Below are positions 2,520 to 29,498 of a stretch of 32,000 nucleotides of DNA, one piece after another (position 1 is the stretch's first letter; every line of letters begins with the position of its first letter). The stretch comes from Edaphobacter aggregans (lineage in GTDB: Bacteria > Acidobacteriota > Terriglobia > Terriglobales > Acidobacteriaceae), in contig NZ_RSDW01000001.1 in the NCBI RefSeq assembly GCF_003945235.1, forward strand, positions 1,980,001-2,012,000. Reading direction: 5' to 3'. Under the pieces are notes generated by a model. The model did no database searches. It saw nothing but the letters and a program-made list of their open reading frames with translations, and was not told the origin of the DNA. A program made the translations under genes and the position numbers.

Positions 2520-3182
2520 ATGAAACTCTATTCGAAGGCTTCGGTCTTTGGAGCAGCATTACTTGCTTTAACGACCGCTTTTGCGTCAGCAGATACGATT
2601 CAACTAGGTAGTTACCAGACCGGTGGTTCAAGCCTCGGTAATGGAAACACTGCTGTTGCTTTTGTGGGATCGTCTACCACAACATTTGCGCTCTCCCCAG
2701 ATGGTGTGTGGGCTCCCGCAGGAGCCAACTCCGTCTGGGTCTCCAATAATGCAGGATCAGGCCCAGGAGGAAGCGTTGTCGAGCCTACCGCTATCTATTC
2801 GTACACCACCACCTTCAATACCTTATCCAGCAATTACACAGGCTCTATCTCGGTACTGGCAGATGACACAGCCGATGTGATCTTCAACGGTCACATGCTG
2901 CAAGCAGAGGGCAGTATCGGTGCCGACACTCATTGCGCTAGCGGACCTCCTAACTGCAGCGTTCCAACATTGATTACCCTTCCGAGTGGGGACTTCCTGA
3001 CTGGCCTAAACACACTGCAATTCGATGTACAGCAAGAGATCGCTCAAACAGGACTTGATTTCTATGGATCAGTCTCGTCGCCAGTCTCCACCTCAGCCAT
3101 TCCAGAGCCGGGTACATTGTTGCTCTTGGGTACCGGTCTTATAGGATCTGCATTCTTACTAATGCGCAAGAGACTGGCATAG
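2520..3182 (+). CDS. PEP-CTERM sorting domain-containing secreted protein
   Basis: Signal peptide MKLYSKASVFGAALLALTTAFASA, a Gly/Ser/Thr-rich body, and a C-terminal IPEPGTLLLLGTGLIGSAFLLMRKRLA (PEP motif + TM + basic tail). AGGAGG at 2508-2513 lies 6 nt before the ATG. G+C is visibly lower and A/T-ending codons are more frequent than in the flanking genes. Confidence 0.85.
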   Translation: MKLYSKASVFGAALLALTTAFASADTIQLGSYQTGGSSLGNGNTAVAFVGSSTTTFALSPDGVWAPAGANSVWVSNNAGSGPGGSVVEPTAIYSYTTTFNTLSSNYTGSISVLADDTADVIFNGHMLQAEGSIGADTHCASGPPNCSVPTLITLPSGDFLTGLNTLQFDVQQEIAQTGLDFYGSVSSPVSTSAIPEPGTLLLLGTGLIGSAFLLMRKRLA

Positions 3183-3361: not shown

Positions 3362-4828
3362 TTACATATCGCCTCTGGGCTGCAGCGTACGTCCAGCACG
3401 CAAAACGATCGAATCCGAGATAGCCCGCGGTAGCTTTTGATAAATTCCGCCGAACCCTCCATTCGAAAGGATCGCCACAACATCGCCATCCCGCAACTCC
3501 GGTGCAATAGCAACCACGATCGCATCCGCATCCGTATGAACCGAAGCCGGAACACCCCGCTCATTCAAGGCTGTAATAACATGCTCCGGAACCAGCCGCT
3601 CATTCGCAGGAATGCTCTCCGACTTGAACACTGAAGCCAGCACAACCCGATCAGCCAACGCAAGACTGTCCACCAACGCCGTCTCGAACACGTTCCGTCG
3701 CAGCGTATTCGACCGCGGCTCAAGCACCGCCAGCAGCCGCTGTCCGGGATAGCGCTCCCGCAAGGCCCGCAGCGTCTCGCGAATCGCCGTCGGATGGTGC
3801 GCAAAGTCATCGATGATCGTCACGCCGCCAACTACAGCACGCACCTCGAGCCTGCGTTTGACACTCTTGAACGTCGCAAGCGCCTCAGCGATGGCCTCAA
3901 TCGGAATGCCCTGCCCAGCCGCAAGCGCCGCAGCAGCCGTAGCGTTCAGAGCATTGTGCTCACCAGCCATCGGTAAACTCAACTCGGCGAACGGCTCACC
4001 GCCGCGCAGAAGCGTCCATCGCGTCAACGGCCCATCATGGCGAAGATGCGTAACGCGCCAATGCGACTGTTCACCGAAACCATACCGCTCCACCGCACAA
4101 AACGCCCGCGCAACACATTCGCTGACGTTCTCGCTCCCATCGAAAGCAACGATACGTCCGCGCCGCGGGATCAGATTCACAAACCGTTTGAACGCCGTCT
4201 TCACAGCAGAAAGATCTACGTAAATATCGGCATGGTCGAACTCCACATGTGTCAGAATCGCCGCATCTGGAAAGTAGTGCAGAAACTTCGGCCCCTTATC
4301 GAAGAAGGCCGTATCGTACTCATCGCCCTCCAGCAGAAACGGCCGTGTTGGCCGCACCATAAAGCTGGTCGCGAAGTTCTCCGCCACGCCCCCAATCAGG
4401 AACGAAGGAGCAAGCGTCGTATCCCTCCACGAGGCCACCTCGTAGATCCAGGCGAGCATGCTCGTCGTCGTCGTCTTCCCATGCGTGCCCGCCACCACCA
4501 GCGACTCGCGCCCTCTCAGGAATTCGTCATGCAAAATCGAAGCCATCGAGCAAAACGGAATCCGCGCATCCAGCACATACTCCAGCTCCACATTGCCACG
4601 CGAAATGGCGTTACCGACCACTACCAGATCCGGCCGTAGCTCCAGATTGCACTCCGCATACGGCTCATAAACCGGAATCCCCAGCCCGCGCAGCAAATCG
4701 CTCATCGGCGGATAAGCCGCAGCGTCCGAGCCTGTAATGTAGTGGCCCTGCATTTGCAACATGCCCGCCAGCGAAGCCATAGCCGTGCCGCAGATGCCGA
4801 TTAAATGAATGTGTTTAGGACTTTGCAT
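3362..4828 (-). CDS. mpl: UDP-N-acetylmuramate:L-alanyl-gamma-D-glutamyl-meso-diaminopimelate ligase (murein peptide ligase)
   Basis: 488 aa, collinear by eye with E. coli Mpl: HLIGICGTAMASLAGMLQMQGHYITGSD, the ATP site GTHGKTTT, EGDEYDTAFFDKGPKF, LEFDHADI-like VEFDHADI, DDFAHHPTAI, LEPRSNT and SNGGFGGIYQKL. Confidence 0.9.
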   Translation of the reverse strand: MQSPKHIHLIGICGTAMASLAGMLQMQGHYITGSDAAAYPPMSDLLRGLGIPVYEPYAECNLELRPDLVVVGNAISRGNVELEYVLDARIPFCSMASILHDEFLRGRESLVVAGTHGKTTTTSMLAWIYEVASWRDTTLAPSFLIGGVAENFATSFMVRPTRPFLLEGDEYDTAFFDKGPKFLHYFPDAAILTHVEFDHADIYVDLSAVKTAFKRFVNLIPRRGRIVAFDGSENVSECVARAFCAVERYGFGEQSHWRVTHLRHDGPLTRWTLLRGGEPFAELSLPMAGEHNALNATAAAALAAGQGIPIEAIAEALATFKSVKRRLEVRAVVGGVTIIDDFAHHPTAIRETLRALRERYPGQRLLAVLEPRSNTLRRNVFETALVDSLALADRVVLASVFKSESIPANERLVPEHVITALNERGVPASVHTDADAIVVAIAPELRDGDVVAILSNGGFGGIYQKLPRAISDSIVLRAGRTLQPRGDM

Positions 4829-4844: not shown

Positions 4845-5786
4845 TTAAACCGTAACAGCTGCCTCGATAAATTGCATCCGCGAATTTTCTCCAATTGACA
4901 GATCAAGCCTGACAGAAACACCCAGCGGAAGCGTGATATTCCCCTTGTCAACGTGTCCGGAACGAAGTCCAATCGCCACTGGGCCGTCAAAATCCCGCAG
5001 CGCATGCAGAATCGCGCCTTCCAGATACTCCTGCTCCTCCGTAGTGACGCACTGACGCATATCGCCAAAGACGATGCCCCTCACACCCTCCAGCCGGCCC
5101 GCATACCGCAGGTGCAAAAGCAGCCGATCCCACTGATACGGCTTCGTCCCAATATCCTCAAGGAAGAGAATCGTATTCTTGCCGACCTGCGGAGCATAGG
5201 GAGTACCCAGCGCCTCCGCATAGATCGAGATGCACCCGCCGCGAAGCCTGCCTTCCGCGACGCCGGCACGCAGAACCCGCAATCCATCCGCTGCACCAAG
5301 CGACCAGGCACCATCACCCTCGAACGTATGTCGCCAACTAGTCATATCCACGCCATCCTCGCGCGAAAAATCCGCCGCAACCATCGGTCCATAAAAGCTG
5401 ATCAGATTAGCCTCATTCTCCAGCCAGCTATGCAGCGAGGTATGGTCGCTGTATCCGATAAACGCCTTAGGATTCGCGCGAATCAGCTCAGCATTTAGAT
5501 ACGGCAGCAGCTCCGCCGAGCCCCAGCCTCCGCGCGTGCAAACGATACCATCGATCGCTGGATCCGCGAAGGCAGCATGCAGGTCGGCAAGTCGATCCTC
5601 GAACCGGCCGGCGTAATATAGCGGTCCGCTATCCAGAGCGTGCGGACTCAAGACCGTCCGATACCCCAGCGTCTGCATGTGTTTGAGCCCGCGTTCCACC
5701 AGTTCAGGCTTCGGCGTACTCGCAGGCGAAAGGACTGCCAGTGTCGCGCCTGGTCGCAAAGCCGCAGGCTTCACAAGTGCATTCAC
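4845..5786 (-). CDS. ldcA: LD-carboxypeptidase (muramoyltetrapeptide carboxypeptidase, peptidase S66)
   Basis: S66 triad context is present: nucleophile GYSDHTSLH, acid FLEDIGTKPYQWDR, His in LRSGHVDKGNITLPLG. It lies 16 nt upstream of mpl, and its start overlaps the stop of the dapF-like gene by 4 nt. Confidence 0.85.
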   Translation of the reverse strand: MNALVKPAALRPGATLAVLSPASTPKPELVERGLKHMQTLGYRTVLSPHALDSGPLYYAGRFEDRLADLHAAFADPAIDGIVCTRGGWGSAELLPYLNAELIRANPKAFIGYSDHTSLHSWLENEANLISFYGPMVAADFSREDGVDMTSWRHTFEGDGAWSLGAADGLRVLRAGVAEGRLRGGCISIYAEALGTPYAPQVGKNTILFLEDIGTKPYQWDRLLLHLRYAGRLEGVRGIVFGDMRQCVTTEEQEYLEGAILHALRDFDGPVAIGLRSGHVDKGNITLPLGVSVRLDLSIGENSRMQFIEAAVTV

Positions 5787-6586
5787 AGTCCAGCAACCTC
5801 ACCACGGCAGATAATCTCGGCTGGCCCAGTCAATTGCATCGCCACATCAGCAGAAGACCAAACGGTACGCTGCGGACCGCCCTCAGCATTGGCAGTCAAC
5901 TCTCGCGCAACTCCACGCAGAGCCATCGCCGCCGCCGAGGATGCACACGTTCCCGTACCGGACGAAGTCGTTGGCCCGCACCCACGCTCATAAATACGAA
6001 ACGCAATCTCATTTTCGCTGAGCACCCGGACAAATTCCACATTTGTTCCATGTGGAAACAGCGGACTGGTGCTGATGCGCGCTCCAAGCTCTTGCCACCG
6101 AAGCCCGTGCGCACTGAAATCCTCCGAATTGACAAACAGAACAAAGTGCGGATTACCCACATTGACCATGGCTCCCACCACGTTCCCGACACCCGGAAGC
6201 TCAATCGTCCGTGGCATCACACGCGGCACACCCATCCCGCTCTCAATCAGATACAACGGATCCGCCACCTCGACGACACGGCACGTGCGAACACCTCCAT
6301 GCGTACCGAGAGCCACCTCATCCAAGCCTTCACTACTCGCAAGCCATGCAGCTACACAACGAGTCCCGTTGCCGGACAACTCCGCTTCACTCCCATCCGC
6401 GTTGAAAAGCCGCAGGAAAAATTCGCCATTCGGCCTGCGCTCCAGAAACTCAATACCATCCGCGCCAACGCTTGTGTTCCGTGAGCAGAGCTTGCGCGCA
6501 AGTTCAGCATGACGCCGCCCCGCCAGATGTTCTTCAATAATCAGAAAGTCATTGCCGCAGGCGTGTGCCTTCACAAAAGGAATCAT
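5783..6586 (-). CDS. dapF: Diaminopimelate epimerase (DapF) family protein; both catalytic Cys positions are Ser
   Basis: MIPFVKAHACGNDFLIIE, LFNADGSEAELSGNGTRC, VGNPHFV and IYERGCGPTTSSGTGTCA are collinear with E. coli DapF. I prefer the ATG at 6586 because the track start at 6640 would overlap the mgtC-like gene ending at 6594. See the finding on the Ser substitutions (codons 6374-6376 and 5960-5962). Confidence 0.8.
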   Translation of the reverse strand: MIPFVKAHACGNDFLIIEEHLAGRRHAELARKLCSRNTSVGADGIEFLERRPNGEFFLRLFNADGSEAELSGNGTRCVAAWLASSEGLDEVALGTHGGVRTCRVVEVADPLYLIESGMGVPRVMPRTIELPGVGNVVGAMVNVGNPHFVLFVNSEDFSAHGLRWQELGARISTSPLFPHGTNVEFVRVLSENEIAFRIYERGCGPTTSSGTGTCASSAAAMALRGVARELTANAEGGPQRTVWSSADVAMQLTGPAEIICRGEVAGL

Positions 6587-6593
6587 GATGTTC

Positions 6594-7331
6594 TTATTCT
6601 GCCTCAACATCACGAAATGCGAGGACTTGATCAGCCTCATCGCTGGCCCTCAGCTCCGCGAGAAGATGAGCATGCATCTTTGCATTTCCCTTCACGACAA
6701 AGGTCAGCCTCTCAAGCGCCGCCACGCTATCTCGCTCAATGACGTTCAACCGCTCGCCCGCCCGATCCATAACGCTCAGGATCGCCACATACATCTTGTT
6801 CTGATTCGTTCCGCGAACTTCATAGATCAGCGGATATCGCTGCCAGCCAATGATCCCCTCAAGATGGCCGATGAAAATCAGGGAAATCAGCGTAATCATC
6901 GTCGCCAGAACCGCCTCGATGTACAGGCCCGCGCCACAAGCCATGCCGATCGACGCAACCACAAAGACAGTCGCCGCACTCGTCAGCCCAACAACTCGAT
7001 CACGCGTATGCAGAATCAGGCCTGCTCCAAGGAACCCTATCCCCTGCACGATGTTCGAAGCAACTCGTCCCTTATCAGGATTCCCGTCGCCCGCCAAAAC
7101 CGCCGAAAGCAGCGTAAAGAAAGCACAGCCCATACACAGCAGCATGTTCGTACGCAAACCTGACGCCTTGTGCCGCCGTTCCCGCTCAAGGCCAATTGCT
7201 CCGCCCAGCAGGCACGCCGCAACCAATCGCGCTGCTGTACCCATGGAGAGCAGCTCTTGATCAATCTGACTGAAATGAAATGATGACGGAATCAACATAA
7301 GTCTGCGTGGATAGTAGCACCGTAAGCCCAC
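6594..7331 (-). CDS. MgtC/SapB family membrane protein
   Basis: MgtC signature LLGGAIGLERERRHKASGLRTNMLLCMG, about 4-5 TM helices, and a C-terminal soluble domain. The start is uncertain: in-frame ATGs at 7298 and 7244 are alternatives to 7331. Confidence 0.75.
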   Translation of the reverse strand: MGLRCYYPRRLMLIPSSFHFSQIDQELLSMGTAARLVAACLLGGAIGLERERRHKASGLRTNMLLCMGCAFFTLLSAVLAGDGNPDKGRVASNIVQGIGFLGAGLILHTRDRVVGLTSAATVFVVASIGMACGAGLYIEAVLATMITLISLIFIGHLEGIIGWQRYPLIYEVRGTNQNKMYVAILSVMDRAGERLNVIERDSVAALERLTFVVKGNAKMHAHLLAELRASDEADQVLAFRDVEAE

Positions 7332-26709: not shown

Positions 26710-27492
26710 CTATCTGCCAATCAGCCGCAGAATCTGACCCGCAGCATCGGCAACATCGGTCCGGCACCCAGCGTAACAAGTGGCACCCGCCACCGCATGT
26801 TGGAATACCCTCACCAAATCTGGCGATTCCGCCAAAACATGAGGCGTGTTCCGCAATAGGGTCAGCAATCCTTCGCTTTGAGGCATCGCCGCCACACTCC
26901 AGGTACATTCAGGCCGATACTCCAGCGCCAAAACCCAGCCAACCGGCGCCGGCGCATCCCCAATCGAAGCATTGCATTCGCCCGGCAGCACCGGGAATTG
27001 CTCAGGGCAGCCATTCCGCAGCAACAAAGGCCGAGGATATGGGTGCACCCGCCCCTCGGAATCGATCAGCGCATACTCATCGGAAAAATAGGTAGCGCCC
27101 CGCCGCAACAGCTCTGCCACCAGCGACGATTTTCCCGAATGCGTGACCCCCGGCAGCAGCAACACCCGTTCGCCCCACAGAACGGCGCCCGCATGAACGG
27201 CGTGCAGCGTCGTCAGGTGCTGGATCACAGCCTCGTCCAACACCCTGATGAGGTCCGGCACCAGGCTGATCGCTTGACCAGCCGATGCCACCACCGCATC
27301 GTCAACTGACAACTGAAATTGATCCGAAACCCGAACTAGGCGGATGGAGATATCAGGCTTCTCCGCGCCGCCAACCAATCGCGGTAGCGAAGGAAAAACA
27401 TAGCGTTCTAGGATGGCATACGTTTCAAGGCACTCCGCCGCCACTTGAATATGGCAGCCAAAAGCGCGAACCTCAAAACCGAGAGTGGGCAT
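26710..27492 (-). CDS. HPr kinase/phosphorylase-related P-loop kinase (HprK C-terminal-domain-like)
   Basis: VHAGAVLWGERVLLLPGVTHSGKSSLVAELLRRGATYFSDEYALID aligns by eye with the HprK catalytic domain (VHGVLV..G.GVLI.G.SGVGKSE.ALEL..RGH.L.ADD). The Walker A GVTHSGKS is at 27127-27150. GAGG lies 4 nt upstream of the ATG. Confidence 0.7.
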   Translation of the reverse strand: MPTLGFEVRAFGCHIQVAAECLETYAILERYVFPSLPRLVGGAEKPDISIRLVRVSDQFQLSVDDAVVASAGQAISLVPDLIRVLDEAVIQHLTTLHAVHAGAVLWGERVLLLPGVTHSGKSSLVAELLRRGATYFSDEYALIDSEGRVHPYPRPLLLRNGCPEQFPVLPGECNASIGDAPAPVGWVLALEYRPECTWSVAAMPQSEGLLTLLRNTPHVLAESPDLVRVFQHAVAGATCYAGCRTDVADAAGQILRLIGR

Positions 27493-27506
27493 AGCCTCGC
27501 GTCAGT

Positions 27507-27532
27507 AATGTCTGTCCAGAAAAACAGACATT
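27507..27532 (-). promoter_or_regulatory. Intercistronic RNA hairpin just upstream of the kinase ribosome-binding site
   Basis: aatgtctgt (27507-27515) is the perfect reverse complement of acagacatt (27524-27532), with an 8-nt loop. On the mRNA strand it ends 14 nt before the kinase AUG. Confidence 0.5.
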
Positions 27533-27645
27533 CATAATCCTGCACACAGCGATCGGAGCAAGATGGCTTGGAGCAGATGGCTCGATTGCGAATAAGCCGA
27601 GGGATGCAAAGAAGACGTTCTTGTCTCTGCACCCACTCAAAATGT

Positions 27646-28092
27646 TCAGCTATGCGGCTTCGGAACTGGCACAGGTGTGGGTGGGGGCGGAGGCGTGGGC
27701 GTCGGACGTATAACCGAAGACGCTTTTTGCGCGTAGGCTCGTTGGTCTGCAACAGATAACGCCACGACGAGCGGCAGCGCGGCAGCGCTCACCGTTCCGA
27801 TGAATTCGCGACGGGTCGCCTTTGAGGCCCCCCATGTCTTCACCAGTTTCTTGTCGTTCAGTTGCAGAATCGCCTCTTCTGCCAGTTCTTCATTTACCGC
27901 TGGGTCGAACGAGCGCTGCATGCCTTCTGTCACTCTGGCGAGTGTCGTCGGATCACTGCATGCGTCCCAGGCTGCGCCGGCCATCGCGTTCAATGCGAAA
28001 ACCGTCTCGTTTTTAGCGTCGACAATAACTTTTGAACCGTCGGGAAGTTGATTGATTACCAAGGCATCTGAATTGGTGCGTTCTACCTGCAT
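27646..28092 (-). CDS. PqqD-family (RRE-like) domain protein fused to an internal twin-arginine/TM segment and a Pro-rich C-terminal tail
   Basis: GAGG lies 7 nt upstream of the ATG. Residues ~8-84 fit the PqqD pattern (VIVDAKNETVFALNAMAGAAWDACSDPTTLARVTEGMQRSFDPAVNEELAEEAILQLNDKKLV). TRREFIG follows at 27796-27816, then the hydrophobic TVSAAALPLVVALSVA, then AYA-Q, then the tail QKASSVIRPTPTPPPPPTPVPVPKPHS. Confidence 0.7.
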   Translation of the reverse strand: MQVERTNSDALVINQLPDGSKVIVDAKNETVFALNAMAGAAWDACSDPTTLARVTEGMQRSFDPAVNEELAEEAILQLNDKKLVKTWGASKATRREFIGTVSAAALPLVVALSVADQRAYAQKASSVIRPTPTPPPPPTPVPVPKPHS

Positions 28093-28352
28093 ATACTGAC
28101 CTCTTTTTTTGGAGTCTCAGCAAGGACGGGCCCACTCTCGGAATTCCGAAAGTGTACGCCCGCATGGTTATTTTGTGGCGGATTCTTTAGTAACCTGATG
28201 TATTTTTCTCACTCCCCCTGCAACGCCTTGCGGGGAGCGCCAATTCCGTGTAACCTCCTCTCTTCCAAGACATGGATCGCGATAGCGCTTTGCACGAGTC
28301 AAAGTGCAAGCTGCAACATATTGCGACATATGCAGCGAAGCGGAGGGGACGA

Positions 28353-29498
28353 ATGCAAGCCGATTGCGAGTCTTGCGAACTGCTGCTCCGTGCAATTGCC
28401 CAACCGGCCAATGCAGAGCAAATTCAGCGCGCTGCTGTTAAAGTTCGCGACTGGGATTCGGTCCTCAGGTTGGCGCACGAGCACCGTGTGTCCTCGATGC
28501 TTTTCTCGCGACTCGCAAACATGGTTCCCGCGGTCCCGCTGATCGTGCAGAACCGCCTTCGCGCCGAGTACGACAGCAACATGTTTCACAATCTCGCGAA
28601 TGCAGTGGAATTGCTTGCCGTACTCAAAGTACTCGAACACGAGATGATTCCGGCCATGCCGTTTAAGGGTGTCGTGCTGGGAGCGTCCATCTACCACGAC
28701 CCTACGACGCGCCCCGCCGGCGATCTGGATCTGCTCATCCACTACAGGCATCTCAAGCCAGCCATGGCTATTCTCCTCGAACGAGGATACGAACTGAAAA
28801 CTCTCGCGCGTGCCGATGGAATCCCGTTCGATCCGAACTACACCTACGAATACCGTTTCGAACGGAAAACTGACGGAATGATATTGGAGCTTGGCTGGAG
28901 ACTTGAGCTTGCCCAGCCAAAATTCAAACGCGATCTCGGTCTCGATTGGGTATGGCCAAGCCGGCGAACCACCATGCTGGCAGGTGCCGAAGTTCCAGAC
29001 ATGAGCCCCGAGATCACCTTGCTGGTGCTTTGTCTGCATGGGGGCAAGCACGCGTGGTCGCGGCTCATCTGGATCTGTGACGTCGCGCAGCTACTGGCTT
29101 CGTCTCCCGGCCTCGATTGGAAAGAAGTCGTCCACGAAGCGAAGAAGTCAGGACTATGCCGCACGCTCGCCTTGGGTGTATTGCTTGCGCATCAAGTCGC
29201 GGGCGCCACAGTTCCTCCGACTGTCCTGCGGCGCTTTGAAGCGGACACGACCGCACGCAACTTGGCGCAACATTTCCAGCAGAATTTGTTTGCCGCGCCG
29301 GGCATCACACCCATGGGCCGCATTCCTTACACCGTCCAGTTGCTCGACTTCCGCGATCAAGTCAGGTGGCTCTTGTCCTTTGACTTCCTGCGGCCAAATG
29401 AGAGAGATCGAGCAGCCCTCCAACTACCGAAGCCGCTCCACGCCCTCTACTATCTGATTCGCCCCTTCCGCATCTTTTGGGATAGATCGGCAAGGTAA
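28353..29498 (+). CDS. Nucleotidyltransferase family protein (PF14907 / NTP_transf_5-like, pol-beta superfamily)
   Basis: FKGVVLGASIYHDPTTRPAGDLDLLI (G..x..DxD; Asp codons at 28722-28730) and an N-terminal ELLLRAI...DWDSVLRLAHEHRVSSMLF helical region, which I recall as typical of this family. The ATG at 28353 has GGAGG 6 nt upstream and is preferred over the track start at 28272. Confidence 0.7.
   Translation: MQADCESCELLLRAIAQPANAEQIQRAAVKVRDWDSVLRLAHEHRVSSMLFSRLANMVPAVPLIVQNRLRAEYDSNMFHNLANAVELLAVLKVLEHEMIPAMPFKGVVLGASIYHDPTTRPAGDLDLLIHYRHLKPAMAILLERGYELKTLARADGIPFDPNYTYEYRFERKTDGMILELGWRLELAQPKFKRDLGLDWVWPSRRTTMLAGAEVPDMSPEITLLVLCLHGGKHAWSRLIWICDVAQLLASSPGLDWKEVVHEAKKSGLCRTLALGVLLAHQVAGATVPPTVLRRFEADTTARNLAQHFQQNLFAAPGITPMGRIPYTVQLLDFRDQVRWLLSFDFLRPNERDRAALQLPKPLHALYYLIRPFRIFWDRSAR

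What the first reader, a model, noticed from the sequence alone, without database searches (positions are those of the whole stretch)
5783..6586. DapF homologue in the mpl-ldcA peptidoglycan-recycling operon has both catalytic cysteines replaced by serine
The protein is collinear with bona fide diaminopimelate epimerases. However, at the two positions equivalent to E. coli Cys73 (..SEVAQCGNGARC..) and Cys217 (..ERGAGETQACGSGAC..) it reads SEAELSGNGTRC and ERGCGPTTSSGTGTC. Both replaced residues are TCC Ser codons (6374-6376 and 5960-5962, checked on the nucleotide sequence). It is established that DapF uses a two-thiol acid/base mechanism and that the Cys residues are treated as invariant. A natural Ser/Ser variant is therefore predicted to be a poor epimerase or no epimerase at all. 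The gene is translationally coupled (4-nt overlap) to ldcA, with mpl 16 nt further downstream. The genes for releasing and re-ligating L-Ala-D-Glu-meso-DAP are thus co-expressed with it. It may be a DAP- or tripeptide-binding or otherwise neo-functionalised paralogue rather than the lysine-pathway enzyme.
Basis: partly seen in the sequence, partly recalled or inferred. Interest (0 to 1): 0.6.

Follow-up and report, generated by a model that had tools for sequence, protein, structure and literature searches.

The report
Natural serine-serine diaminopimelate epimerase (DapF)
This soil acidobacterium's only diaminopimelate epimerase gene (needed for lysine and cell wall) really has serines where textbook enzymes have two catalytic cysteines, but the change is fixed across its family and working serine-type enzymes were published in 2025, so it is another member of a known kind.

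Summary
Observation confirmed: Ser71 (TCC 6374-6376) and Ser209 (TCC 5960-5962) align to E. coli Cys73/Cys217. It is not an assembly error: 120 of 121 close homologues are Ser/Ser by motif (the other has a change beside the motif), all 39 fully read family loci are too, and all six Ser codons occur at both sites. The reading 'poor or dead epimerase, neofunctionalised paralogue' is not supported. This is the only dapF in a 99.98%-complete genome that has dapA/B/D, lysA and a meso-DAP-type MurE, and no DAP dehydrogenase. The family is essentially single-copy. All ten DAP-contacting residues are kept and dN/dS is 0.05-0.1. Natural Ser/Ser DapF enzymes were described by Lamer et al. 2025 (J Mol Biol 437:169375; read only through PMC13728532): in the Anabaena enzyme, Ser-to-Cys inactivates. 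Best reading (0.87): the housekeeping LL-/meso-DAP epimerase using a serine pair. The ldcA-mpl link is limited to one branch, and other Ser/Ser acidobacteria lack it. Activity of this lineage is untested, and its kinship to the Anabaena enzyme could not be tested. The scan has noted this variant in at least eight other genomes. Ordinary: new member of a known kind.

The parts
5783..6586 (-). dapF, Ser/Ser-type diaminopimelate epimerase, 267 aa (an in-frame ATG at 6640 would give 285 aa but overlaps the upstream gene; most homologues are called at 267 aa)
   Evidence: AlphaFold2 model pLDDT 95.2, best Foldseek match DapF 9mro TM 0.87
6374..6376 (-). Ser71 codon TCC, equivalent to E. coli Cys73; directly before predicted helix 72-86
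5960..5962 (-). Ser209 codon TCC, equivalent to E. coli Cys217; directly before predicted helix 210-224
4845..5786 (-). ldcA-like LD-carboxypeptidase (peptidase S66), GTG start overlapping the dapF stop by 4 nt
   Evidence: PF02016 + PF17676 over cut-off; NF008424 matched but below cut-off, 125 vs 378; junction
3362..4828 (-). mpl, murein tripeptide ligase, 16 nt after the ldcA stop
   Evidence: TIGR01081 428 bits, cut-off 388.7
6594..7331 (-). MgtC/SapB-family gene ending 7 nt before dapF (start uncertain); often adjacent in relatives
   Evidence: PF02308
7377..10983 (-). upstream same-strand genes, probably the same transcript: GT-C-like membrane protein (weak PMT_2/DUF6020), PfkB kinase, PNP/UDP phosphorylase-family gene
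   Evidence: co-transcription inferred from spacing only, no promoter found

Best explanation
This is the organism's housekeeping diaminopimelate epimerase. It interconverts free LL-DAP and meso-DAP for lysine synthesis (LysA) and peptidoglycan (MurE, Mpl), using a serine pair in place of the cysteine pair. Shown here by sequence and model: DapF fold; Ser71 and Ser209 at the two catalytic positions, each at a helix N-terminus; all DAP-contacting residues kept; sole copy; purifying selection. Shown in the literature for another member: a natural Ser/Ser DapF depends on its serines. Inferred: a two-base mechanism in the closed, water-poor site, one serine removing the alpha-proton and the other protonating the opposite face (by analogy with H. 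influenzae, Ser71 acts as base on LL-DAP; from my own knowledge). Also inferred, and weakest: the serines are activated by helix dipoles, backbone NH groups and nearby extra hydroxyls (Ser208, Thr213). The place beside ldcA-mpl is a later, branch-limited grouping of genes that handle DAP.
For: Only PF01678 gene in a one-contig, 99.98%-complete genome (relaxed tblastn and motif scan agree). Pathway demands it: asd-lysC-dapB and dapA-dapD cluster at C1:2084721-2093472, lysA over cut-off, MurE over cut-off with the DNPR motif typical of meso-DAP ligases (motif meaning from own knowledge); no DAP dehydrogenase in this genome or over cut-off in 80 family genomes; no second Alr-like gene of the DapF2 type seen among the four PF01168 matches (by inspection). 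Family: 78 of 80 genomes have TIGR00652, essentially one copy each; all 39 fully read loci Ser/Ser. The ten DAP contacts named for Anabaena DapF (PMC12039745) correspond to N12, N62, G72, N73, N145, N182, E200, R201, G210, T211, kept in 105-108 of 108 Ser/Ser loci. dN/dS 0.05-0.10 against close relatives where synonymous sites are not saturated. Lamer et al. 2025 as cited in PMC13728532. A second Ser/Ser group lies beside dapA/dapB in seven metagenome loci.
Against: No assay of any acidobacterial Ser/Ser enzyme was found; the primary 2025 paper could not be read and the Anabaena Ser/Ser sequence could not be obtained, so transfer of activity rests on analogy. Engineered Cys-to-Ser changes hinder catalysis in canonical DapF-fold enzymes (PMC12039745). 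E. coli dapF mutants still grow because another racemase supplies some meso-DAP (GapMind 2026), so being the only copy is not proof; this genome also has a PhzF-like and a proline-racemase-like DapF-fold gene. The column of E. coli Tyr268 (dimer interface, own knowledge) is Cys here and usually small in Ser/Ser proteins. The gene is not next to the dap cluster.
Confidence: 0.87

Rival explanations
1. One reading: a catalytically poor or dead DapF kept as a DAP- or muropeptide-binding partner of LdcA/Mpl, or re-aimed at peptide-bound DAP, with meso-DAP made by another enzyme.
For: Translational coupling to ldcA and linkage to ldcA/mpl in 67 of the Ser/Ser loci read; engineered Cys-to-Ser hinders canonical enzymes; dapF loss is tolerated in E. 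coli.
Against: No second dapF, Ddh or DapF2 found. Both ends of the pocket keep the residues that bind free amino and carboxyl groups, which argues against an acylated (peptide) DAP. Serine itself, not just any non-cysteine, is fixed, using all six codons, as expected of a catalytic residue. Ser/Ser loci outside the Terriglobales family (8 of 8 same-order, 14 of 14 other-phylum-branch, plus Bryobacterales, Blastocatellia, Aminicenantes) show no ldcA/mpl within the 1.5-5 kb held.
Confidence: 0.06
2. An active racemase/epimerase or eliminase of a different small substrate (for example lanthionine or another amino acid), with DAP epimerisation a side activity.
For: The DapF fold carries several specificities and members are often mis-annotated (PMC12039745). 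Ser/Ser DapF-like genes also occur in what look like biosynthetic clusters on Streptomyces and Agrobacterium plasmids.
Against: All distal-site residues for DAP kept; passes the DapF equivalog; best sequence and structure matches are DAP epimerases, ahead of O-ureidoserine racemase and far ahead of PhzF and proline racemases; single-copy, vertical pattern across the family.
Confidence: 0.04
3. It is a DAP epimerase, but a nearby cysteine (C10, C77, C203 or C214) has taken over the acid/base role.
For: C10 lies beside the amine-binding N12, and C203 within the ERG loop; C77 and C214 follow the two motifs.
Against: C10 is present in 67 and C203 in 43 of 108 Ser/Ser loci; C77 and C214 are also present in all 26 Cys/Cys enzymes and lie inside the predicted helices.
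Confidence: 0.02
4. Assembly error or recent decay of a Cys/Cys gene.
For: TCC differs from TGC by one base.
Against: Fixed in over 250 related sequences with all six Ser codons; intact frame; dN/dS 0.05-0.10.
Confidence: 0.005

Closest known systems
[quoted passage not shown]
   Same: DapF fold with serine at both catalytic positions.
   Different: In Anabaena sp. YBS01 the Ser/Ser gene is a second copy beside a Cys/Cys one; here it is the only dapF, across a whole family. Whether both belong to one clade, and whether the paper's survey included Acidobacteriota, could not be checked. Activity not measured here.
Canonical DapF, EC 5.1.1.7 (TIGR00652, PF01678; PDB 9mro, 3ejx, 2gke, 4ijz, 5m47)
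   Same: Passes the equivalog cut-off; same fold (TM 0.87 to 9mro); all ten DAP-contacting residues; about 30-35% identity.
   Different: Ser71/Ser209 for the Cys pair; Ser208 and Thr213 where Cys/Cys enzymes mostly have Ala, Leu70 where they mostly have Met; Cys260 for E. coli Tyr268.
Other DapF-fold enzymes: O-ureidoserine racemase (7vdy), PhzF, proline and hydroxyproline racemases/epimerases; chlamydial bifunctional DapF (NF038284)
   Same: Fold; natural variation at the catalytic positions occurs in this superfamily.
   Different: Lower scores (7vdy 29% identity; PhzF/ProR 13-17%; NF038284 78 bits vs cut-off 350), different motifs.

Membership tests
Canonical Cys/Cys DapF | TIGR00652 equivalog score above cut-off, two PF01678 domains | tested here: met
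   199 bits vs 114.65; two domains
Canonical Cys/Cys DapF | Two catalytic cysteines | tested here: not met
   Ser71 and Ser209; so not filed as a Cys/Cys DapF
Canonical Cys/Cys DapF | DAP-binding residues at proximal and distal sites | tested here: met
   N12, N62, G72, N73, N145, N182, E200, R201, G210, T211
Ser/Ser DapF (Lamer et al. 2025) | Serine at both catalytic positions | tested here: met
Ser/Ser DapF (Lamer et al. 2025) | DapF overall fold kept | tested here: met
   model pLDDT 95.2, Foldseek TM 0.87 to 9mro
Ser/Ser DapF (Lamer et al. 2025) | Serine-dependent LL/meso-DAP epimerase activity | not testable with these tools
   needs an assay; genomic need and conservation support it
Ser/Ser DapF (Lamer et al. 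2025) | Same lineage as the assayed Anabaena YBS01 enzyme | tested here: inconclusive
   Anabaena Ser/Ser sequence not obtainable. With other Ser/Ser groups as stand-ins, one clade for the three main groups is not rejected (p-AU 0.76), nor for all Ser/Ser rows (p-AU 0.078); the free quick tree splits them
Pseudo-enzyme / neofunctionalised paralogue | A second, canonical gene supplies the original function | tested here: not met
   no second dapF and no Ddh in the genome or family sample
Bifunctional chlamydial DapF/glutamate racemase (NF038284) | Score above curated cut-off | tested here: not met
   78.4 bits vs 350

The most novel reading that the evidence does not exclude
The acidobacterial Ser/Ser DapF is not (only) the free-DAP epimerase but has been re-aimed at the recycling pathway, binding or epimerising DAP in the tri- or tetrapeptide handled by LdcA and Mpl. 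A milder and likelier novelty (about 0.3, interest about 0.35) is that it is an origin of serine catalysis independent of the assayed Anabaena enzyme and serves as the sole epimerase of a whole family.
Probability: 0.06. Interest if true: 0.6.

Novelty: new member of a known kind. Interest (0 to 1): 0.2.

Why it matters
The surprise (serine replacing both catalytic cysteines in a working epimerase) is real but already in print with bench work. What this gene adds is range and context: in a very abundant soil family the serine form appears to be the only route to meso-DAP, not a spare copy, so it is a good second test case. The phylum also holds natural Cys/Cys, Cys/Ser and Ser/Ser relatives that could help show how a serine is activated. 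For annotation: Ser/Ser dapF genes should not be flagged as dead.

Tried and rejected
Reading the primary paper by PMID and DOI failed; 'DapF-SS' and 'C73S C217S' searches found nothing; PMC3610995 was not held, so the role of Tyr268 rests on my own knowledge. No natural Ser/Ser DapF turned up among PDB matches by sequence, profile or fold (judged from titles and the alignments shown). The Anabaena YBS01 genome is not in the annotated collections; attempts to reach a cyanobacterial Ser/Ser sequence through plasmids, the ESM Atlas and homologue searches gave none. Multiple independent origins of Ser/Ser looked likely on the quick tree (the careful search did not finish) but are not shown: constrained trees were not rejected (four long-branch rows left out, the two catalytic columns dropped). 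'Conserved across the whole phylum' was tested and is too strong: of 39 weaker phylum matches read, 19 are Ser/Ser, 2 partly read with Ser, 5 Cys/Ser, 13 Cys/Cys. Promoter scan gave nothing. No literature on acidobacterial peptidoglycan DAP isomer found. No complex prediction was sent: adjacency to ldcA alone did not justify it. DapE and DapC were not identified individually (20 M20-family matches; several class I aminotransferases).

Full report
Observation. The minus-strand ORF at 5783-6586 is an intact 267-aa protein that passes the NCBIfam DapF equivalog (199 bits, cut-off 114.65) and Pfam PF01678. Ser71 is TCC at 6374-6376 and Ser209 is TCC at 5960-5962; both align to the catalytic cysteines of E. 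coli (C73, C217) and of four solved DapF structures. The 4-nt overlap with ldcA and the 16-nt gap to mpl are as reported; mpl passes TIGR01081 and ldcA carries both S66 domains. Nearest named relatives are Edaphobacter and Granulicella (Acidobacteriaceae).

Not an error, and selected. Among the query and 120 homologues at 85-96% identity, every one has serine at both sites (120 by motif, one with a change beside the motif). In 108 genomic Ser/Ser loci all six serine codons occur at each site. dN/dS against close relatives is 0.05-0.10 where measurable. None of the protein's cysteines replaces the pair: C10 and C203 are variable among Ser/Ser proteins, and C77 and C214 are shared with all Cys/Cys enzymes read.

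Not a paralogue. The genome is one contig, 99.98% complete, and holds one PF01678 gene (one search agrees). It has asd-lysC-dapB and dapA-dapD clustered about 100 kb away, lysA, and a MurE with the DNPR motif, and no DAP dehydrogenase. The other DapF-fold genes are one PhzF-like and one proline-racemase-like gene. In 80 family genomes of different genera, 78 have TIGR00652, essentially once each, none has Ddh over cut-off, and all 39 loci read in full are Ser/Ser. A succinylase-type route to lysine and a meso-DAP wall need an epimerase, and this is the only candidate found. Caveat: E. coli survives without dapF through a weak back-up racemase.

Active-site anatomy. The AlphaFold2 model (pLDDT 95.2) has Ser71 and Ser209 directly before helices 72-86 and 210-224 and matches cyanobacterial DapF 9mro best (TM 0.87). 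The ten residues that contact DAP in Anabaena DapF (PMC12039745) all have their counterparts and are kept in 105-108 of 108 Ser/Ser loci. These bind a free amino and carboxyl group at both ends, which argues against a peptide substrate (inference). Columns that differ with the serine state are 208 (Ser in 33 of 54 Ser/Ser vs 3 of 33 Cys/Cys rows), 213 (Ser/Thr in 37 of 54 vs 3 of 33) and 70; they are candidates for tuning the serines, but kinship confounds the count. The column of E. coli Tyr268 is Cys here.

Range and operon. Ser/Ser DapF forms a well-supported group over much of Acidobacteriota (31 rows, SH-aLRT 98), but not the whole phylum: a divergent DapF group in other classes is Cys/Cys, Cys/Ser or Ser/Ser. 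Further Ser/Ser groups occur in Zixibacteria/Ignavibacteria and widely in metagenomes, some beside dapA/dapB. One origin for the three main groups is not rejected (p-AU 0.76), nor for all Ser/Ser rows (0.078), so repeated origin is not claimed. Linkage to ldcA/mpl is seen in 67 Ser/Ser loci, nearly all Terriglobales, and not in the other Ser/Ser lineages within the flanks held. The serine pair therefore appears older and wider than the operon.

What is known. PMC13728532 states that Lamer and colleagues identified DapF enzymes that use two catalytic serines with the same fold, that changing them to cysteines inactivated the Anabaena sp. YBS01 enzyme, and that this organism has both a Cys/Cys and a Ser/Ser gene, possibly against oxidative stress. 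I could not read the primary paper or obtain that sequence. So 'works like' is well supported and the class-defining sequence features are met, while activity of this lineage and its kinship to the assayed enzyme are untested. I found the paper before consulting earlier scan notes; those record the same variant in at least eight other genomes with the same conclusion, and one note that says nobody has tested such an enzyme is superseded.

Verdict. Real feature; most likely the housekeeping DAP epimerase with serine catalysis (0.87); re-aimed or dead recycling partner 0.06; other substrate 0.04; cysteine take-over 0.02. New member of a known kind, interest 0.2. Residual value: a sole-copy, family-wide example, and natural Cys/Ser relatives for studying serine activation.

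Noticed in passing
L166-L191 (phylum genomes G234, G095, G214, G070, G052, G121, G213, G191 and others): A divergent acidobacterial DapF group with a one-residue insertion after ERG holds Cys/Cys (13), Cys/Ser (5) and Ser/Ser (4) members side by side: possible natural steps between the two chemistries.
   Followed up: partly
L312:1492-2436 (Streptomyces plasmid NZ_CP108679.1) and L316:253-1149 (Agrobacterium vitis plasmid NZ_AP023281.1): Ser/Ser DapF-like genes between a 2OG-Fe dioxygenase and a molybdopterin oxidoreductase gene in two distant phyla; looks like a shared biosynthetic cassette with a probably different substrate.
   Followed up: no
L169 (G131, Geothrix) and L192-L311 (metagenomes): A widespread second Ser/Ser group, 30-36% identical to this protein; G131 and G189 have two DapF matches; seven loci lie beside dapA or dapB. 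Possibly the group of the assayed Anabaena enzyme (my recollection, unverified).
   Followed up: partly
P0161, P0189, P0191, P0242, P0260, P0176: Six of 150 distant representatives have one serine and one cysteine, scattered over the tree.
   Followed up: no
L024 (G002:C1:753600-754396): The only dapF of a 99%-complete same-genus genome has two single-base deletions; sequencing error or pseudogene not distinguished.
   Followed up: partly
window 2520-3182 (+): A PEP-CTERM gene lies between mpl and the plsC-like acyltransferase gene (1461-2222), on the opposite strand.
   Followed up: no
window 6594-7331 (-): An MgtC/SapB-family gene stays directly upstream of dapF in many relatives, including some that lack ldcA/mpl linkage; no functional link known to me.
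   Followed up: no
window 26710-29498: Unnamed ORF, PqqD-domain protein and PF14907 nucleotidyltransferase cluster; already covered by earlier scan notes.
   Followed up: no
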